Part shown: in pieces, positions 47,323 to 53,128 of the stretch
Layout of the letters: every line of letters starts with the position of its first letter
Numbering within the stretch: the first letter of the stretch is position 1
Source of the DNA: Escherichia phage EcSzw_1
DNA length: 64,000 bases
Sequence record: MH791413.1
Reading direction: 5' to 3' (one strand)
The notes under the pieces: model-generated
Databases searched by the model: none
What the model was told of the DNA's origin: nothing
What the model saw: the letters and a program-made list of their open reading frames with translations, nothing else
Position numbers and translations under genes: made by a program

Positions 47323-47398
47323 TGGAGCGTCGAAAGGGAGTCGAACCCTCATAATCCTGTTTTGCAGACAGGTACATAGCCATTTCTGTCATCGACGC
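47323..47398 (-). tRNA. tRNA-Cys (GCA)
   Basis: Hand-folded cloverleaf: acceptor GCGTCGA/TCGACGC, anticodon loop CTGCAAA, T-loop TTCGACT, CCA encoded. Confidence 0.75.
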
Positions 47399-47405
47399 AT
47401 TAAAT

Positions 47406-47498
47406 TGGAGGAAGATACCAGACTTGAACTGGTACGCCGATTTCTCGGTTACTGACAGTTTAGCAAACTGTTCCCTTACCTTTTAGGGTTAATCTTCC
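47406..47498 (-). tRNA. tRNA-Ser (GCT), class II
   Basis: 93 nt; acceptor GGAAGAT/ATCTTCC; anticodon loop TTGCTAA; long variable arm. Confidence 0.75.
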
Positions 47499-47500
47499 AA

Positions 47501-48235
47501 TTATTTGTTCAAGGCATCCTTCATTTCTGGAGTTGCAATTGAATCAATCACGCCAGTTTTACAAGCATCATCAAACCAGTCTGGTAAGACACCTGCAAGG
47601 AAACCATTAATATTCGTTTTCAAGTAATCAGCAATTAACGCTGCTTCATCTGCAATCATCTGAGTGACCTCATTAGTGTATGCAGTAATCTTAGCAATGC
47701 CCTGATTAATCGCTGTAACGGCTTGTGAGGCTAAGGAAGAGATAGTGTCTAGTCCTTTGTCGATTGCGTCTTTTAAGTCGCTTAGAATGCCATTCACAGT
47801 GTCTATGGAGGTGTTAATCAAATCCATAGCTTGTTGACCGTACTCTGTAGCTACTCCCATGATTCCACTAAACGGTGTACAACCAACTTGTTCTCCTGCT
47901 GCACCCATAACGTTAGAGTAACCTTTAGCTACCTGCATACGTGATGAGAACTCATCTACAGAAGTCTGACCGTATTGAGTCAGTGTGTTAGTTGTCGTTG
48001 TAGTGCTTCCAAGGCTCGTTGAGAAGCTACTTAACAAGGCTGTAGTCAAACCAGCAGCAATAAGTTTATCTTTTACTGTAGGGTCTGATACCGAGCTAAT
48101 AGAGCTTACTAATGAAGTAGAAGCGGCAATTGTGCCACCAAGGATTGCTGCACCAGTAATAAGGGGGTTGGAAAACCCGTTACCGGATTTCAGGAGATTA
48201 AAAATCTCTTTACCTTGTTCTGTCATCTCTTTCAT
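47501..48235 (-). CDS. Hypothetical Ser/Thr/Ala-rich protein inside tRNA array
   Basis: 244-aa ORF. Confidence 0.5.
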   Translation of the reverse strand: MKEMTEQGKEIFNLLKSGNGFSNPLITGAAILGGTIAASTSLVSSISSVSDPTVKDKLIAAGLTTALLSSFSTSLGSTTTTTNTLTQYGQTSVDEFSSRMQVAKGYSNVMGAAGEQVGCTPFSGIMGVATEYGQQAMDLINTSIDTVNGILSDLKDAIDKGLDTISSLASQAVTAINQGIAKITAYTNEVTQMIADEAALIADYLKTNINGFLAGVLPDWFDDACKTGVIDSIATPEMKDALNK

Positions 48236-48252
48236 TAAGCACCTTTTGAAAT

Positions 48253-48329
48253 TGGCGGGTTAGTGGGATTTGAACCCTCTTCTCATGTTTTTCAGACACG
48301 CGCTTTAACCATATAAGCTACTTAACCCA
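48253..48329 (-). tRNA. tRNA-Phe (GAA)
   Basis: Anticodon loop CTGAAAA; T-loop TTCAAAT; 3' register uncertain by 1 nt. Confidence 0.65.
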
Positions 48330-48336
48330 TTAAATT

Positions 48337-48413
48337 TGGGGTGACCTACGGGAATCGAACCCGTATAGACCATGTTCACAGCATGGGTCATTATCCATTT
48401 ATGATAAGGCCAC
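48337..48413 (-). tRNA. tRNA-His (GTG)
   Basis: Anticodon stem-loop CCATG-CTGTGAA-CATGG; T-loop TTCGATT. Confidence 0.7.
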
Positions 48414-48444
48414 ATGTAAGGACTCTCGTAAGAACCCTTAGAAG

Positions 48445-48520
48445 TGGCAGCAGCGTAAGGATTTGAACCTTAATCTTTCAGCTTCAGAGGCTGGAGCATT
48501 GCCAGTTATGCTACACTGCT
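48445..48520 (-). tRNA. tRNA-Gln (CTG)
   Basis: D stem GCAT/ATGC; anticodon loop CTCTGAA; T arm TAAGG-TTCAAAT-CCTTA. Confidence 0.65.
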
Positions 48521-48527
48521 ATTAATT

Positions 48528-48606
48528 TGGTACTCCATATCGGATTCGAACCGATACATAACACAGATTTTAAGTCTGGCCTCTCTGCCAATTGGAGTAA
48601 TGGAGC
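48528..48606 (-). tRNA. tRNA with Leu anticodon TAA but short (7-nt) variable region
   Basis: 79 nt; anticodon CAGA-CTTAAAA-TCTG; D loop AATTGGCAGAG; A73; no long variable arm. Confidence 0.55.
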
Positions 48607-48608
48607 AT

Positions 48609-48685
48609 TGGCGGGGGATGTTGGAATTGAACCAACTTCTTCGATTTCAAAGACCGAGGTTTTAACCTTGTAAACTAATCCCCTT
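48609..48685 (-). tRNA. tRNA-Gln (TTG)
   Basis: Anticodon stem-loop TCGGT-CTTTGAA-ATCGA; T arm GTTGG-TTCAATT-CCAAC. Confidence 0.65.
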
Positions 48686-48692
48686 TAAATCT

Positions 48693-49250
48693 TTACTTTC
48701 TTAGTGGATGAATAAAGAATGCCAACATAATTCTTTCCCTTGAGAATGCTCTTTCTTCTGGGACAACACTTTTAAGTTTCCATCCAACATAAATTCTCCA
48801 GTAAAACTGTTTACCAAAGACTTTAATTGATGGGATAAAAGCGAATAATCCCCAAGCATTACTATTCCACATTAGGAGATAACCTGTCTGATTATCTTCA
48901 GGGTTAGAACTTACGTTGATATTACCTTTCCACTTAGTAACATCTTTTACATCTCTTCCCAATACATGGTAAGAGAAGTTATAAGCTTTGTTTCTCCAGA
49001 GCCATCCAACTCTCTGCATATAAACACCGAGCTTGCCAATCTTTCGAATCTTAGCCCACCGTTCAACGTGACCTTTGTCACCGTCAATCGGGTTGTCATA
49101 AGTCTCCATCCATCTGAATCCAAAAGGCAAGTGACCTTTCTTCTCACTGTAGAATGGAACTACAAAGGGTGCTAAGATTACTGCTAAGATTGCTGCAAAT
49201 GGCTCTAGCAAAGCTAGGAAAATCCATGAAGCATACTTCAAATATCTCAT
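48693..49250 (-). CDS. Membrane protein, hypothetical, inside tRNA array
   Basis: 185 aa with N-terminal hydrophobic helices. Confidence 0.5.
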   Translation of the reverse strand: MRYLKYASWIFLALLEPFAAILAVILAPFVVPFYSEKKGHLPFGFRWMETYDNPIDGDKGHVERWAKIRKIGKLGVYMQRVGWLWRNKAYNFSYHVLGRDVKDVTKWKGNINVSSNPEDNQTGYLLMWNSNAWGLFAFIPSIKVFGKQFYWRIYVGWKLKSVVPEERAFSRERIMLAFFIHPLRK

Positions 49251-49269
49251 TTAAATAGCCTCTTTAAAT

Positions 49270-51425: not shown

Positions 51426-51675
51426 ATTCTTATCTTTAAAGGCTCTCTTAGAAAACCCTTAAAGATGCCCACATTATTAATCATACCGTGGGCGAGTACG
51501 CCAAATTCTTTGATGAGGGGTTGGAAGACCTCACTGGTGTTTAGCCTATTAAGCTACTGCCAGAAAAACATTATCGTTTGCATTTATTTTAGTTTGCAAA
51601 AATAGACGCTACGCTAACGAAAACTAAGGTTACTATAAAGTGGTCACATCTGAATGTCAACAACTTTATCAAATT

Positions 51676-51750
51676 TGGTAGTGGTAGCAGGAATCGAACC
51701 TGCGATGTTCGGTTATCAGCCGAGTGTTATGACCGTCTTAACTATACCAC
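51676..51750 (-). tRNA. tRNA-Ile (GAT)
   Basis: Anticodon loop CTGATAA; T arm GCAGG-TTCGATT-CCTGC. Confidence 0.7.
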
Positions 51751-51753
51751 CAT

Positions 51754-51830
51754 TGGAGGTTCAGATGGGATTCGAACCCACATTCATAGGGCTTATGAAA
51801 CCCTTGCATTACCTTATCTGCGACTGAACC
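51754..51830 (-). tRNA. tRNA-Met (CAT); could be initiator, elongator or Ile2
   Basis: Acceptor GGTTCAG/CTGAACC; anticodon AGGGT-TTCATAA-GCCCT with three G:C pairs; T-loop TTCGAAT. Confidence 0.65.
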
Positions 51831-51909
51831 ATAATAAGTTGCCCTTTGGAGAAGAGCTATTGAGTGGGTGTTTCCAGCCGCGCAGGTGTTCTTCAGTTAA
51901 GGGCGAATT

Positions 51910-51985
51910 TGGTAGGAGTGGAGGGATTCGAACCCGTCGCCTGTCAGATTAAAAGTCTGCCGCATCACCATTCTGCTACACTCCC
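51910..51985 (-). tRNA. tRNA-Lys (TTT)
   Basis: Anticodon CAGA-CTTTTAA-TCTG; paralog of Lys(CTT) with the same weak T stem. Confidence 0.55.
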
Positions 51986-52410
51986 ATTAAATCATCTTTG
52001 CAGTAACCTACGCAAACCTTGCTAAAGGGTTTGTAGAGTCATTTCCTATTAAGCTAATCTAGAATCATGCTAAAGAAATTCATCGGCACTCATGGGACGA
52101 CATTTAGCTCCATAAGTCACTGCAAAGAGGATTACCAGACCGTTGTTTTATCTTAAGTGCTCCCATTACACCAACACGCCGTAACGTGTGAAGGAATCGA
52201 ACCTTCGCCTTTTCTTTACCAGAGAAATAGATTGTTTAATACTTGCTGTAAACGGTCTTCTGTAAATTTGTTGAGCCAGACCAAGTTTTAAATTTTTCAA
52301 AATTAAATTGGCTTGAAATTTTAAGTAATTTGCTGAATTTGGTCTTCTGCTCCTTTAAAGAATACTCGTAAGAACTCTTTAAGGGATGGGCTAAAAAGCC
52401 CTCTCAAATT

Positions 52411-52488
52411 TGGCGGTTACGAAGGGATTCGAACCCTCATCATCTCCCGTGACAGGGGAGTATTTTAACCAGATTAAACTACATAACC
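52411..52488 (-). tRNA. tRNA-Asp (GTC)
   Basis: Anticodon CTCCC-CTGTCAC-GGGAG; T arm GAGGG-TTCGAAT-CCCTT. Confidence 0.75.
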
Positions 52489-52494
52489 TTTGTT

Positions 52495-52582
52495 TGGTGC
52501 GCCGTGAAGGAGTCGAACCTACCGAGTCATAATGACAAGTGATTTACAGTCACCACCGCTTCCATCTACGGGATAACGACGC
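52495..52582 (-). tRNA. tRNA-Tyr (GTA), class II
   Basis: 88 nt; anticodon GGTGA-CTGTAAA-TCACT; long variable arm hairpin. Confidence 0.7.
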
Positions 52583-52652
52583 ATTTTATTCTATTCAGGC
52601 TAAGGACTTGCACCTTACAAATCGGTGAGCATTACGCTTCTCTCCCAAATCT

Positions 52653-52729
52653 TGGCGGTGAGTTAGGGACTCGAACCCTATACCATTCGGTTAACAGCCG
52701 ACCGCACATGCCTTATGTGCTTCCTCACC
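52653..52729 (-). tRNA. tRNA-Asn (GTT)
   Basis: D arm GCAC-ATAAGGCAT-GTGC; anticodon loop CTGTTAA; T arm TAGGG-TTCGAGT-CCCTA. Confidence 0.7.
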
Positions 52730-52810
52730 ATGTTTAGTATTGCCAGACCGTATCTTTTCATTTTTCCTATAAAAAATTTTGAGATTGCTGTAAACGGTCT
52801 TCTGCAAATT

Positions 52811-52887
52811 TGGAGGCGGGTGTTGGAGTCGAACCAACCGTTACCATGCTAATGAGACATGTGAGACGCCCTTTCTCTATACCCGCG
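52811..52887 (-). tRNA. tRNA-Met (CAT), second copy with 1:72 C-C mismatch
   Basis: Anticodon CATGT-CTCATTA-GCATG; T arm GTTGG-TTCGACT-CCAAC. Confidence 0.6.
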
Positions 52888-52969
52888 ATTCTTAATGACC
52901 AGACCAAGTTTTATTTTCTATAAGCGAAGAAAGTTTTTTAACTTGCTGAATTTGGTCTTCTGTCAAATT

Positions 52970-53044
52970 TGGAGTCGTAGACGGGATTCGAACCCGCGAG
53001 CAACTGATTGAAGGTCAGGTGGCTAACCATTTGCCTTCTACGAC
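52970..53044 (-). tRNA. tRNA-Glu (TTC)
   Basis: Acceptor GTCGTAG/CTACGAC; anticodon loop CCTTCAA; T-loop TTCGAAT. Confidence 0.7.
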
Positions 53045-53051
53045 ATTAATT

Positions 53052-53128
53052 TGGTCTCCGTTGAGGGAGTTGAACCCTCGACCCCTTGCTCCCAAAGCAA
53101 GTGCTCTGCCAAACTGAGCTAAACGGAA
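53052..53128 (-). tRNA. tRNA-Pro (TGG)
   Basis: D arm GCTC-AGTTTGGCA-GAGC; anticodon CTTGC-TTTGGGA-GCAAG; T arm GAGGG-TTCAACT-CCCTC. Confidence 0.75.

What the first reader, a model, noticed from the sequence alone, without database searches (positions are those of the whole stretch)
47323..53128. tRNA array appears to encode a complete set of 20 amino-acid specificities
By hand-folding, the 27 tRNAs cover every amino acid, with two each for Arg, Gln, Lys, Met and Ser and three for Leu. A complete phage-borne set is uncommon and implies strong codon-usage mismatch with the host or independence from host tRNA pools. Two tRNA-free spacers of over 200 bp (50640-50890, 51430-51660) remain unexplained.
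Basis: partly seen in the sequence, partly recalled or inferred. Interest (0 to 1): 0.4.

Follow-up and report, generated by a model that had tools for sequence, protein, structure and literature searches.

The report
Phage tRNA array hides tmRNA mimic
The tRNA cluster is the already known one of Felix-O1-type phages (26 ordinary tRNAs for 19 amino acids plus an odd tryptophan-like RNA), but one "empty" spacer encodes an unannotated RNA, common in enterobacterial phages, that copies the tag-coding part of the host's ribosome-rescue RNA (tmRNA) and carries an antisense arm against that host RNA.

Summary
The window is Escherichia phage EcSzw-2 (Suspvirus, Ounavirinae). The array at 47323-53128 (minus strand) is real. 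ARAGORN and Rfam together give 26 tRNAs for 19 amino acids, as in the relatives CHB7 and Sf14. No predictor finds tRNA-Trp.

The only Trp candidate, 50997-51079, has A1-U72, G73 and a CUCCAAA loop, and its stems covary. Its D region is aberrant, so "27 tRNAs, 20 amino acids" is only partly supported, and the array itself is known.

Spacer 51430-51660 is not empty. It holds the strongest sigma-70-like promoter of the region, then a ~200-nt RNA with a tmRNA-type tag frame (ANDNVFLAVA, two stops). A stop-codon hairpin and two covarying pseudoknots follow.

I found no alanine-accepting tRNA-like domain. Instead, the RNA's 5' arm is the reverse complement of E. coli tmRNA nt 80-106, the target of the laboratory anti-ssrA oligonucleotide.

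Matches occur in 710 GenBank phage records (Felix O1, Vi01, P1, lambdoid and N4-like phages). They are almost never annotated, and Rfam has no family.

My best reading, an inference, is that the RNA masks the host tag template and may substitute its own. Spacer 50640-50890 is a conserved structured RNA of unknown function.

The parts
53052..53128 (-). tRNA-Pro (TGG)
   Evidence: ARAGORN; Rfam 61.4 bits
52970..53044 (-). tRNA-Glu (TTC), anticodon loop CCUUCAA (C33 instead of U33)
   Evidence: Rfam 53.7 bits; ARAGORN only at -ps90; C33 is shared by 4 relatives
52811..52887 (-). tRNA with CAT anticodon (Met, Ile2 or initiator not resolved; C1.C72 mismatch read directly from the sequence)
   Evidence: ARAGORN; not reported by Rfam at gathering score or in the permissive scan
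52653..52729 (-). tRNA-Asn (GTT)
52495..52582 (-). tRNA-Tyr (GTA), long variable arm, weak D stem
   Evidence: ARAGORN -ps90; Rfam 22.8 bits (below gathering score); annotated as Tyr in CHB7 and as a pseudogene in PC79-13
52411..52488 (-). tRNA-Asp (GTC)
51910..51985 (-). tRNA-Lys (TTT)
51754..51830 (-). tRNA with CAT anticodon (Met or Ile2 not resolved)
51676..51751 (-). tRNA-Ile (GAT)
   Evidence: 66 bits
51632..51660 (-). Sigma-70-type promoter TTGACA-17-TATAGT; predicted start near 51625
   Evidence: 11 of 12 matches, the best site in the 6.3-kb scan; equivalent promoters sit upstream of the element in S192 and P46FS4
51598..51626 (-). 5' arm of the tmRNA-like RNA, TAGTTTTCGTTAGCGTAGCGTCTATTTTT; reverse complement of E. 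coli ssrA nt 80-106 (frame-setting region, resume codon, codons 1-5)
   Evidence: Local alignment score 28 against shuffled 15.2+-2.1; 10-nt perfect complement; duplex -25.8 kcal/mol against shuffled -14.1+-3.1, 1 of 300 shuffles as good
51546..51581 (-). tmRNA-type tag reading frame GCA AAC GAT AAT GTT TTT CTG GCA GTA GCT TAA TAG = ANDNVFLAVA**, preceded by AUAAAU
   Evidence: ARAGORN -m -ps80 reports 'ANDNVFLAVA**'; a 10-codon AN[DE]xxxL[AM][AV]A frame in 116 of 124 viral matches; excess of synonymous changes in this frame only
51534..51563 (-). Hairpin enclosing the last codons and the stop codons (like tmRNA helix 5)
   Evidence: Covariation GC to AU in 14 of 34 sequences
51501..51533 (-). 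Pseudoknot a: stem TGAGG/CCTCA, with loop CCAA pairing to downstream TTGG
   Evidence: Pairs with changes on both sides in both stems
51467..51500 (-). Pseudoknot b: stem CGTAC/GTATG, loop GCCCAC pairing to GTGGGC, conserved GATTAATAA
   Evidence: Stem 1 counted; stem 2 read by eye across lineages (GCCCAC:GTGGGC vs GGCGGGAG:CTCCCGCC vs GCCCTGA:TCAGGGC)
51432..51466 (-). Terminal hairpin ATCTTTAAGG..CCTTTAAAGAT, just before tRNA-Arg
   Evidence: Read directly from the sequence; the same position in relatives holds larger modules
51349..51425 (-). tRNA-Arg (TCT)
51222..51341 (-). 120-nt tRNA-like RNA ('b'): acceptor stem GGTCAAG/CTTGACT, T arm, G73, CCA, with about 70 nt inserted; function unknown
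   Evidence: Read from the sequence; fold; conserved at 85-97% only in Suspvirus and Mooglevirus relatives; not called as a tRNA
51085..51221 (-). 137-nt segment conserved at 93-97% in most Ounavirinae loci held; contains GGAGGTG followed by a hairpin
50997..51079 (-). Non-canonical tRNA-Trp-like RNA: A1-U72, G73, CCA end, anticodon loop CUCCAAA flanked by C.A, about 8 extra nt before the D-like stem
   Evidence: 99.5% of cells paired, 6 pairs changed on both sides, 0 of 500 shuffles as good; the same position holds an ARAGORN tRNA-Trp(cca) in L071 and L123
50894..50983 (-). tRNA-Ser (TGA)
50636..50893 (-). Spacer 1: conserved structured RNA of unknown function, ending in the ribosome-binding site of the HNH gene
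   Evidence: Core almost invariant in 16 Ounavirinae, long stem with one compensatory pair; MFE z = -3.2; no Rfam match
50183..50635 (-). HNH homing-endonuclease gene (150 aa) inside the array
   Evidence: Pfam PF01844; phrog_10822; absent or replaced in relatives
50105..50181 (-). tRNA-Leu (TAG)
50022..50097 (-). tRNA-Lys (CTT)
49940..50015 (-). tRNA-Ala (TGC)
49859..49933 (-). tRNA-Gly (TCC)
49776..49852 (-). tRNA-Thr (TGT)
49605..49679 (-). tRNA-Val (TAC)
49525..49602 (-). tRNA-Leu (CAA)
49270..49346 (-). tRNA-Arg (ACG)
48609..48684 (-). tRNA-Gln (TTG)
48528..48606 (-). tRNA-Leu (TAA)
48445..48520 (-). tRNA-Gln (CTG)
48337..48413 (-). tRNA-His (GTG)
   Evidence: ARAGORN; Rfam 49.3 bits
48253..48328 (-). 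tRNA-Phe (GAA)
47406..47498 (-). tRNA-Ser (GCT)
47323..47398 (-). tRNA-Cys (GCA)

Best explanation
Shown: this is the tRNA gene cluster of a Felix-O1-type phage (EcSzw-2). It has 26 canonical tRNAs for 19 amino acids, biased towards the A-ending codons the AT-rich phage prefers. It also has a conserved, structurally constrained but non-canonical tRNA-Trp-like RNA. The cluster also carries other non-coding RNAs. In spacer 51430-51660 a strong promoter precedes a ~200-nt RNA. That RNA has (i) a 5' arm complementary to host tmRNA (SsrA) nt 80-106, which is the single-stranded stretch holding the frame-setting signal, the resume codon and the first five tag codons. It has (ii) its own tmRNA-style template: AUAAAU, then GCA..., ten codons for ANDNVFLAVA and two stops. 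It has (iii) a stop-codon hairpin and two pseudoknots. I found no alanine-accepting tRNA-like domain. Inferred: the RNA anneals to host tmRNA and masks the host tag template, as the synthetic anti-ssrA oligonucleotide does in vitro. Because annealing also tethers the phage template to the host's Ala-tRNA-like domain and SmpB, it may make rescued ribosomes add the phage tag instead of ANDENYALAA. That would be a hybrid two-piece tmRNA, or 'tag swap'. The downstream tRNAs are probably co-transcribed, and RNase P cleavage at tRNA-Arg would set the 3' end.
For: Identity of the window: 100% match to MH791400.1. tRNA set. Codon match. Trp-like RNA. Promoter. Tag frame: (ARAGORN 'ANDNVFLAVA**'). A 10-codon AN[DE]xxxL[AM][AV]A frame occurs in 116 of 124 pattern matches in viral contigs. 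All four Ala codons are used at position 10, and synonymous pair differences number 113 against 26 and 25 in the other two frames. Structure: 93.9% of cells paired against 81.5% in shuffles, 96 double-change cells against 29.5, 0 of 500 shuffles as good, and slid controls collapse. There are weak sub-threshold matches to tmRNA models over the template part. Antisense arm: alignment to rc(ssrA) nt 68-106 or 80-108 scores 18-36 in 14 lineages (22-36 in 13 of them), against 15+-2 for shuffles and 12-16 for the sense strand. The longest perfect complement always lies at ssrA 96-108, and lineages extend it in different directions. Duplex energies are -24 to -39 kcal/mol against -14 to -21 for shuffles, and are stronger than with the RNA's own template. 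Antisense oligonucleotides against this same stretch of tmRNA are routinely used to block tmRNA action in vitro (PMC6340945; PMC3384345). Absence of a tRNA-like domain: ARAGORN finds no credible tmRNA at any of 124 sites, its single call (L104) running off the stretch. Phage S192 carries the RNA between its own promoter and terminator, yet has no tRNA and no T-loop motif outside coding sequence in 46.7 kb.
Against: No expression, pairing or tagging data exist; everything is sequence inference. In this window the antisense arm is interrupted (10 bp, then 12 bp with one mismatch) and 1 of 300 shuffles did as well. Part of the conserved 5' motif (AGUUUU) could also form an intramolecular helix with GAAACU/AAACU, so its conservation is not explained only by the host target. 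All hosts with known identity are Enterobacterales with the same ssrA sequence, so I could not test whether the arm tracks the host sequence. It is not known that a ribosome can load a template that is only base-paired to tmRNA at this position. The phage tag ends in LAVA or LMAA rather than ALAA, and its fate with ClpXP is unknown. A diverged tRNA-like domain could have been missed.
Confidence: 0.5

Rival explanations
1. Pure anti-tmRNA antisense RNA. The 5' arm blocks host tmRNA, or marks it for RNase III, so that trans-translation is shut off. The tag-like frame and pseudoknots would be inherited baggage, or a decoy for tmRNA-binding factors such as S1, and would not be translated.
For: The same complementarity evidence applies. 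Antisense oligonucleotides to this site inhibit tmRNA in vitro. No tRNA-like domain is present.
Against: The frame keeps exactly ten codons plus a stop in 116 of 124 copies, with amino-acid-level conservation. Synonymous changes show a four-fold excess in that frame only. The U(-5)A(-4) positions are retained, and these are important for frame choice on tmRNA (my own knowledge of the tmRNA literature, e.g. PMC2481249, which was listed but not read). An untranslated relic would not be expected to keep these features across several phage families.
Confidence: 0.25
2. A complete phage tmRNA, one-piece or two-piece, whose alanine-accepting tRNA-like domain lies elsewhere. Candidates are the 120-nt tRNA-like RNA at 51222-51341, or a neighbouring tRNA used as the acceptor piece.
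For: Rfam's permuted-tmRNA model aligns at 34.6 bits when tRNA-Ile upstream is taken as the acceptor piece. tRNA-like RNAs with CCA ends lie downstream here and in Ackermannviridae. Some Ounavirinae relatives have a D-armless tRNA-like RNA with G3.U70 and A73 directly downstream of the element.
Against: The Rfam score is below the gathering score of 47 and drops to 21.5 bits once tRNA-Ile, a normal 66-bit tRNA, is excluded. No candidate in the window has G3.U70 with A73, apart from tRNA-Ala itself. The promoters sit immediately upstream of the conserved 5' arm. Phage S192 has the RNA but no tRNA-like sequence anywhere. The distance to the Ackermannviridae tRNA-like RNA varies from 3 to about 160 nt, and it is absent in P46FS4.
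Confidence: 0.1
3. The spacers are ordinary inter-tRNA leader or processing sequences, or decaying remnants of tRNA and tmRNA genes, with no function of their own.
For: The array is mosaic. Homing endonucleases come and go. Degenerate tRNA-like remnants exist, for example 52181-52256 at 30.6 bits.
Against: The element is kept in 710 GenBank phage records from unrelated families. It carries compensatory changes in five helices and coding-type constraint on the tag, and in several lineages it has its own promoter. Spacer 1 is more conserved than the flanking tRNAs.
Confidence: 0.07

Closest known systems
tRNA gene clusters of Ounavirinae (Felix O1: 22 tRNAs; Sf14: 26 tRNAs for 19 amino acids; CHB7: 26)
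   Same: Same gene order, same anticodons, same strand, and the same interspersed small ORFs and HNH genes (PMC12482277; PMC3185647).
   Different: Nothing essential differs. This record (MH791400.1) simply lacks tRNA annotation. The Trp-like RNA and the non-tRNA RNAs of the cluster are not annotated in any of the five relative records I inspected.
Bacterial tmRNA (SsrA), Rfam RF00023
   Same: A-rich leader with U(-5)A(-4), GCA resume codon, ten-codon tag beginning AND and ending in small hydrophobic residues, double stop inside a hairpin, and pseudoknots downstream.
   Different: There is no tRNA-like domain (no acceptor stem with G3.U70, no T arm, no CCA). It is only ~200 nt long. It scores 12-15 bits against a gathering score of 47. 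It carries an arm antisense to the host tmRNA, which no tmRNA has.
Two-piece (circularly permuted) tmRNAs: RF01849, RF01850, RF04321
   Same: They show that template and acceptor functions can sit on two RNAs held together by base pairing. The tag-region sequence is very similar (AUAAAUGCAAACGAUAAC in the RF04321 consensus).
   Different: In those, both pieces come from one gene of the same organism and the coding piece supplies the 5' acceptor strand. Here the proposed partner is the host's intact tmRNA, and pairing is with its template region rather than helix P2.
Phage-encoded tmRNAs (mycobacteriophage Bxz1 group, Bacillus phage G) and the domain-only RNA of DS6A (PMC4131195)
   Same: Phages are known to carry trans-translation RNAs. 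DS6A carries a partial one, thought to interfere with host tmRNA.
   Different: Those are complete tmRNAs or a tRNA-like domain alone. This is the opposite half, template plus pseudoknots, with an antisense arm, and it occurs in enterobacterial phages where none had been listed in 2014.
[quoted passage not shown]
   Same: It is complementary to the same stretch of E. coli tmRNA. The phage arms contain (CG)TAGTTTTCGT(C) and GCGAC(T) from it.
   Different: The oligonucleotide is DNA, fully complementary, and serves only to block. The phage arm is interrupted and is fused to a replacement template.
Stable RNAs of unknown function in the phage T4 tRNA cluster (species 1 and 2; my own knowledge, not checked here)
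   Same: Non-tRNA stable RNAs with tRNA-like ends embedded in a phage tRNA operon, like element 'b' and the Trp-like RNA.
   Different: No sequence relationship was tested.

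Membership tests
Canonical bacterial-type tRNA | Cloverleaf recognised by a tRNA predictor or covariance model | tested here: met
   26 genes are called by ARAGORN and/or score at or above Rfam RF00005 gathering score. Exceptions: Tyr scores 22.8 bits and one CAT gene gets no Rfam hit; both are called by ARAGORN.
Canonical bacterial-type tRNA | The same test applied to the Trp candidate 50997-51079 | tested here: not met
   No Rfam tRNA match at E<=5. ARAGORN calls it only at -ps80 as 'tRNA-???(agcg)' with a wrong acceptor stem. About 8 extra nt lie between the acceptor and D stems. The stems nevertheless covary.
Complete (20-amino-acid) phage tRNA set | At least one predicted tRNA for every amino acid | tested here: not met
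   19 of 20 are found; Trp is absent from all automated calls and from the tRNAscan-SE annotation of CHB7. Sf14 is published with 19.
Complete (20-amino-acid) phage tRNA set | Aminoacylation of the Trp-like RNA by TrpRS | not testable with these tools
   A1-U72, G73 and the CCA anticodon are present. That these are the E. coli Trp identity elements is my own knowledge.
tmRNA (SsrA) | tRNA-like domain: acceptor stem with G3.U70, A73, T arm, 3' CCA | tested here: not met
   ARAGORN -m finds no credible tmRNA at 124 sites; its single call (L104) runs off the stretch. None is found in the window near the element. S192 has no T-loop outside coding sequence in 46.7 kb.
tmRNA (SsrA) | Internal tag reading frame with a GCA resume codon, no start codon or Shine-Dalgarno sequence, and a hydrophobic C-terminus | tested here: met
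   ANDNVFLAVA** at 51581-51546. The frame is conserved and under coding-type constraint.
tmRNA (SsrA) | Stop codon in a helix, followed by pseudoknots | tested here: met
   One hairpin and two H-type pseudoknots with compensatory changes.
tmRNA (SsrA) | Reaches the Rfam gathering score of any tmRNA model | tested here: not met
   RF00023 scores 12-15 bits (gathering score 47). RF04321 scores 34.6 bits, or 21.5 without the neighbouring tRNA (gathering score 47). RF01849 scores 14 bits.
Two-piece permuted tmRNA | Acceptor piece (T arm, 3' acceptor strand, CCA) upstream of the coding piece in one precursor, with the coding piece starting at the 5' acceptor strand | tested here: not met
   The only 'acceptor piece' is the 3' half of a normal tRNA-Ile. 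A promoter lies between it and the element. The 5' end of the RNA is the antisense arm, not GGGG....
Trans-acting antisense RNA against host tmRNA | Extended complementarity to an accessible region of the target, greater than chance and conserved | tested here: met
   the target stretch is the one used for anti-ssrA oligonucleotides.
Trans-acting antisense RNA against host tmRNA | Pairing in vivo, an effect on the target, and co-variation with host ssrA in other hosts | not testable with these tools
   All identified hosts share the E. coli ssrA sequence. One attempt to find the host of a divergent copy (L048) gave no hit.
Ro60/Y-RNA system (considered because the neighbouring gene is named 'RNA-binding protein') | TROVE-domain protein plus a Y RNA (Rfam YrlA) | tested here: not met
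   The protein matches only DUF2828 and DUF7788, with no TROVE match, and has no PDB relative by sequence. YrlA scores 19.9 bits against a gathering score of 69, lying over two tRNAs.

The most novel reading that the evidence does not exclude
Many enterobacterial phages (Felix O1 group, Vi01/CBA120 group, P1, lambdoid HK633-type, N4-like, 46-kb siphophages) encode a 'tag-swap' RNA. This RNA anneals to the template region of the host's tmRNA, silences the host degradation tag and presents its own template. Ribosomes rescued by the host Ala-tmRNA/SmpB machinery would then append a phage-specified peptide (AANDxxxLAVA or LMAA), with a different proteolytic fate. That would be an interspecies, hybrid two-piece tmRNA.
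Probability: 0.3. Interest if true: 0.9.

Novelty: new variant of a known kind. Interest (0 to 1): 0.72.

Why it matters
The tRNA array itself adds nothing new. It confirms, for one more phage, the published 26-tRNA, 19-amino-acid pattern and shows that an unannotated GenBank record can be annotated.

What matters is the content of the 'empty' spacer. It holds an apparently undescribed RNA family with matches in about 1.4% of GenBank phage records and in 147 of 5,426 complete E. coli genomes. Carriers include the model phage P1 and lambdoid prophages.

If this RNA acts on host tmRNA, it would be the first natural antisense regulator or hijacker of trans-translation. It would show that phages manipulate ribosome rescue and protein tagging. 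It could also explain older observations that some phages depend on tmRNA (my own knowledge, not checked here), and would offer a natural design for reprogramming tags.

The idea is directly testable in P1, lambdoid phages or Felix O1 with standard genetics, Northern blots and mass spectrometry.

The covarying Trp-like RNA also shows that predictors undercount functional tRNA-like genes in phage arrays.

Tried and rejected
1. Reading the 52973-53044 gene as a UCA (opal-reading) tRNA. Recounting the stem gives the loop CCUUCAA, so the anticodon is UUC (Glu) with C33.

2. Y-RNA/Ro60 idea for the tRNA-like RNAs next to the DUF2828 'RNA-binding protein'. There is no TROVE domain and no YrlA match.

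3. Permuted tmRNA using tRNA-Ile as the acceptor piece. This is an artefact: the score falls to 21.5 bits without the tRNA.

4. Search for a tRNA-like domain in the window, in 124 viral contexts, in the whole S192 genome, and in the P1 and HK633 regions. The only ARAGORN tmRNA call (L104, coordinates -19..730) runs off the stretch and is spurious. The Ackermannviridae 126-nt tRNA-like RNA and window element 'b' lack G3.U70 and are not consistently linked to the element.

5. The +1 frame starting at the conserved AUG (MQTIMFFWQ). It is not conserved and shows no excess of synonymous changes.

6. Pairing of the 5' arm with the RNA's own template. This is weaker than pairing with host ssrA in all 11 lineages tested.

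7. RNAduplex on full-length RNAs. The output was meaningless, so I replaced it with short segments.

8. Finding the host of the divergent copy L048. The predicted ssrA pattern gave 0 hits in genomes, and there is no close GenBank phage.

9. Scan of species-representative genomes with the tag pattern. Of the 120 loci returned, only one that passed my tag-length filter was a real element, in a Pseudocitrobacter genome (Enterobacterales). A second Enterobacterales locus (L139) was not examined. The other filtered matches looked like chance.

10. The P1 genome paper could not be read, because the id I tried is not held.

11. A 20-aa ORF (MFSRTCKKSEKGLYSVVIIR) in the 137-nt conserved segment. The ATG is absent in the distant relative L067, where only GGAGGTGGTCTGTATCTC plus a hairpin is kept, so an RNA-level role is more likely.

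Full report
What the window is

The 6.2-kb region is 100% identical to Escherichia phage EcSzw-2 (MH791400.1). This is an 'UNVERIFIED' record of a Suspvirus (Ounavirinae, the Felix O1 group). Only hypothetical proteins are annotated in this stretch of the record, and no tRNA. About 190 other phage records cover at least 80% of the region at 85-97% identity.

The observation

The tools disagree at the margins:
- ARAGORN at default settings gives 24 tRNAs.
- Rfam at gathering score also gives 24, but it adds 52973-53044 and a weak 52182-52245 and misses His and one CAT gene.
- ARAGORN at -ps90 adds Tyr-GTA (52495-52582) and Glu-TTC (52970-53044).
- A permissive Rfam scan recovers His at 49.3 bits and Tyr at 22.8 bits.

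CHB7, 97% identical and annotated with tRNAscan-SE, has the same 26. [quoted passage not shown] No predictor finds tRNA-Trp.

The Trp candidate

The stretch 50997-51079 reads ATGGGAC...GTCCCAT-G-CCA.
- It has a 7-bp acceptor stem with A1-U72, a G73 discriminator and an encoded CCA.
- It has a T arm (GGGG TTCGAAT CCTC).
- It has a 5-bp anticodon stem closing CCUCCAAAA, which is the CUCCAAA loop of tRNA-Trp flanked by a C.A mismatch.
- That A1-U72, G73 and CCA are the E. coli Trp identity elements is my own knowledge.
- About eight extra nucleotides separate the acceptor stem from a 3-bp D-like stem. That is why the Rfam tRNA model gives no hit and ARAGORN misfolds it.

In 11 distinct relatives the anticodon stem changes from GTAAG/CTTAC to AACGG/CCGTT, the D-like stem from CTC/GAG to CAC/GTG, and one T-stem pair from G-C to U-A. 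Overall 99.5% of cells pair, six pairs change on both sides, no shuffle of 500 does as well, and slid controls collapse. In two viral contigs (L071, L123) the same position holds a 71-nt gene that ARAGORN calls tRNA-Trp(cca).

It is plausibly a non-standard tRNA-Trp, but its function is unproven. The verdict on '27 tRNAs, 20 amino acids' is therefore 'partly'.

Interpretation of the array

The window is 40.4% GC, against 50.6% for a 49-kb E. coli sample. The codons most enriched in the phage are read by phage tRNAs with U34, among them AGA (RSCU 2.29 vs 0.29), CCA, TCA, ACA, TTA and GCA. This fits codon compensation. The Sf14 authors favour near-exclusive use of the phage tRNA pool late in infection. 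A large array is a family trait (Felix O1 has 22 tRNAs, PMC3185647), so this part is already known.

Spacer 2 (51430-51660)

It begins with the best sigma-70-like promoter of the region: TTGACA-17-TATAGT, 11 of 12 matches. Downstream lies AAAUAAAU GCA AAC GAU AAU GUU UUU CUG GCA GUA GCU UAA UAG, which encodes ANDNVFLAVA**. This is a close analogue of the E. coli SsrA tag ANDENYALAA, and ARAGORN in relaxed tmRNA mode reports exactly this peptide.

A distant blastn search showed the same ~120 nt in unannotated intergenic DNA of unrelated phages (Agtrevirus P46FS4, Klebsiella phage VLCpiS10a, Deseoctovirus S192), each with its own tag variant.

Of these, 116 carry a ten-codon frame of the form AN[DE]xxxL[AM][AV]A. 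Among 30 distinct frames, position 10 uses all four Ala codons. Synonymous pair differences over codons 4-6 number 113 in this frame, against 26 and 25 in the other two.

On an alignment of 34 divergent copies I specified five elements: the stop-codon hairpin, both stems of a first pseudoknot, and stem 1 of a second pseudoknot. They show 93.9% paired cells (shuffles 81.5%), 96 cells with changes on both sides (shuffles 29.5) and 0 of 500 shuffles as good, and the slid controls collapse. Stem 2 of the second pseudoknot covaries by eye (GCCCAC:GTGGGC, GGCGGGAG:CTCCCGCC, GCCCTGA:TCAGGGC).

Rfam has no family for this RNA. Only sub-threshold matches to tmRNA models cover the template part.

A blastn search with the S192 copy matches 710 of 50,697 GenBank phage records. 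They include Felix O1-like phages, Vi01/SFP10/CBA120-like phages, N4-like phages (EC1-UPM, IME11, Pollock), lambdoid HK633 (between PR'/qut and the holin gene) and P1 (next to its tRNA-Asn/Thr genes, tag ANDDLMMVAA). Almost every listed row shows no annotated feature under the match. A search of complete E. coli genomes with the 401-nt HK633 region that holds the element matches 147 of 5,426, many only over part of the query. None of the listed matches is annotated.

The paper behind the tmRNA website (2014) lists phage ssrA only in mycobacteriophages and Bacillus phage G (PMC4131195). Four further text searches found no description. That is absence of evidence only.

It is not a tmRNA

I looked for the defining tRNA-like domain and did not find it.
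- ARAGORN finds no credible tmRNA at any of the 124 sites. Its single call, in L104, has coordinates that run off the stretch.
- The match to the permuted-tmRNA model depends on borrowing the 3' half of the normal tRNA-Ile, and falls from 34.6 to 21.5 bits without it.
- Promoters abut the conserved 5' end.
- Phage S192 has the RNA between a promoter and an intrinsic terminator (about 390 nt). Its 46.7-kb record holds no tRNA and no T-loop motif outside coding sequence.

The 5' arm

The invariant 5' motif (U)AGUUUUCGU is the exact complement of ACGAAAACU(A) in the E. coli SsrA tag template. I fetched ssrA from MG1655.
- In 31 of 37 representative copies the longest perfect complement to ssrA (7-12 nt; 10-12 nt in 24 of them) lies within nt 96-108. 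Lineages extend it in different directions: TAGTTTTCGT, AGTTTTCGTC, CGTAGTTTTCGT.
- Local alignment shows that the whole 5' domain is a gapped reverse complement of ssrA. It covers nt 80-106 in Ounavirinae, nt 68-106 in the siphophage, lambdoid and Ackermannviridae copies, and nt 79-119 in L048.
- Alignment scores are 18-36 (22-36 in 13 of the 14 lineages), against 15+-2 for shuffles and 12-16 for the sense strand.
- Duplex energies with ssrA nt 60-125 are -23.6 to -39.3 kcal/mol, against about -14 to -21 for shuffles (z from -2.4 to -7.2). The window gives -25.8, with 1 of 300 shuffles as good.
- In all 11 lineages the duplex is stronger than with the RNA's own template. The RNA's own resume context is AUAAAU|GCA where the host has UAGUC|GCA.
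[quoted passage not shown] That oligonucleotide is added to cell-free systems to stop tmRNA from releasing stalled ribosomes (PMC6340945; PMC3384345).

Mechanism (inferred)

The RNA would anneal to the single-stranded template region of host tmRNA and mask its resume codon. The phage strand leaves the duplex on the PK1 side of the host RNA and continues, after about 20 nt, into its own resume codon with U(-5)A(-4) retained. The phage template would therefore sit roughly where the host template normally sits relative to the host's Ala-tRNA-like domain and SmpB.

The coding-type constraint on the tag argues that it is translated. I therefore favour a 'tag swap', with a pure antisense block as the main rival. 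The phage tag ends in LAVA or LMAA instead of ALAA. Whether that alters ClpXP recognition is unknown.

Weak points:
- No experimental data exist.
- The arm is interrupted in this phage.
- AGUUUU can also pair internally with GAAACU/AAACU.
- There is no host diversity with which to test co-variation. Of the species-representative genome loci that passed my filter, the only real element was in an Enterobacterales genome.

Spacer 1 (50636-50893) and the rest

- Spacer 1 has a core that is almost invariant in 16 Ounavirinae. It folds better than shuffles (z = -3.2) and has a long stem with one compensatory pair and many G-U/A-U switches. It has no Rfam match and persists in CHB7, where the HNH gene is absent. 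It is a conserved structured RNA of unknown function.
- Between Arg-TCT and Ser-TGA lie a 120-nt tRNA-like RNA with a CCA end (51222-51341) and a 137-nt segment conserved at 93-97% in most relatives held. The Trp-like RNA follows them.
- Between Asp and Lys-TTT (51986-52410), and between Glu, Met and Asn, lie four repeated cassettes of the form CAGAAGACC...GGTCTGG. One of them contains a degenerate tRNA-like remnant.

Verdict

The tRNA array is real and ordinary for its family. The 'complete set' claim rests on one non-canonical RNA. I could not find this described, and it is directly testable in model phages.

Noticed in passing
window 52970-53044 (-): tRNA-Glu(UUC) has the anticodon loop CCUUCAA, with C at the nearly universal U33 position. 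The same loop occurs in mistaenkt, CHB7, PC79-13 and the distant contig L067, but Sf14 is published with CTTTCAA.
   Followed up: partly
window 51222-51341 (-): A 120-nt tRNA-like RNA: 7-bp acceptor stem, T arm, G73, encoded CCA, and about 70 nt in place of the D and anticodon arms. It directly follows tRNA-Arg(TCT) and is conserved only in Suspvirus and Mooglevirus relatives (85-97%).
   Followed up: partly
window 51085-51221 (-): A 137-nt non-coding segment that is 93-97% identical in most Ounavirinae loci held, more conserved than neighbouring tRNAs. It contains a perfect Shine-Dalgarno-like GGAGGTG followed by GTCTGTATCTC and a hairpin. A possible 20-aa ORF is not conserved in L067.
   Followed up: partly
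window 50636-50893 (-): Conserved structured RNA upstream of the HNH gene. The core AAAGCACCTAGTAGGTGTCACGGAGAAGAGATA... is almost invariant in 16 relatives, and MFE z = -3.2. It is present even where the HNH gene is missing (CHB7).
   Followed up: partly
window 52888-52969, 52730-52810, 52270-52360, 52130-52269 (-): Four cassettes that start right after a tRNA's CCA with AAATTTG(A)CAGAAGACC(AAATTC or GTTTAC)AGCAA and end with (TT or C)GGTCTGG. They form 7-bp stems around AT-rich loops of 40-100 nt. The last one encloses a degenerate tRNA-like remnant (Rfam tRNA 30.6 bits, 52182-52245).
   Followed up: partly
window ~48415-48444, ~52352-52384, ~47270-47300 (-): Repeated hairpins with the motif GTTCTTACGAG (stem closed by a UACG tetraloop) between tRNAs and after the last tRNA. 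They may be processing or stability signals.
   Followed up: no
window 53296-54712 (-): The gene just upstream of the array (DUF2828 + DUF7788, phrog_850 'RNA-binding protein') matches profile positions 51-476 only. It is preceded by a separate 41-aa ORF, whereas relatives have one 471-aa gene. This is probably a frameshift, stop or sequencing error in this UNVERIFIED record. There was no TROVE/Ro60 match.
   Followed up: partly
window 49296-49508 (-): A conserved 70-aa ORF (phrog_10765, Cys-rich N-terminus, basic C-terminus) overlaps the 5' part of tRNA-Arg(ACG) by about 50 nt. It is annotated the same way in relatives.
   Followed up: no
L021, L025, L032, L055, L071, L074, L113, L123 (about +160 to +270 nt from the tag start): In eight viral Ounavirinae contigs, ARAGORN calls no tRNA-Arg(UCU) in the stretch downstream of the tmRNA-like RNA. 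There, where this window has tRNA-Arg(UCU), they carry a D-armless 81-nt tRNA-like RNA. It has a CUUCUAA anticodon loop, a long variable region, acceptor stem CGGGGCG/CGCCUCG (G3.U70), A73 and CCA, with one compensatory change in the anticodon stem. That combines alanine identity elements with an Arg (AGA) anticodon.
   Followed up: partly
L130 (P1) 1680-2700; L131 (HK633) 1430-1790; L007, L009, L011: In P1, lambdoid and 46-kb phages the tmRNA-like RNA is flanked by repeated modules of the form CACAACAGGTAAGAGCA..X..TGCTCTT-N-CC-GTTGTGGTGAA. X often contains a hairpin and a T arm (GGGTTCGAATCCC). These look like D-armless tRNA-like units with an N-CC 3' tail embedded in a longer helix. Their function is unknown.
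   Followed up: partly
L097, L063, L079, L127 (Ackermannviridae), 3-160 nt downstream of the element: A conserved 126-nt tRNA-like RNA, GCCGTTA...GGGTTCGACTCCC...AAACGGC-T-CCA, unannotated and absent from P46FS4.
   Followed up: partly
L001 (mistaenkt) 5740-6168; L004 (CHB7) 3513-3854: The array is mosaic for homing endonucleases. mistaenkt has an HNH gene where this window has tRNA-Tyr. CHB7 has a PD-(D/E)XK endonuclease gene next to tRNA-Ser(TGA) and lacks the window's HNH gene.
   Followed up: no
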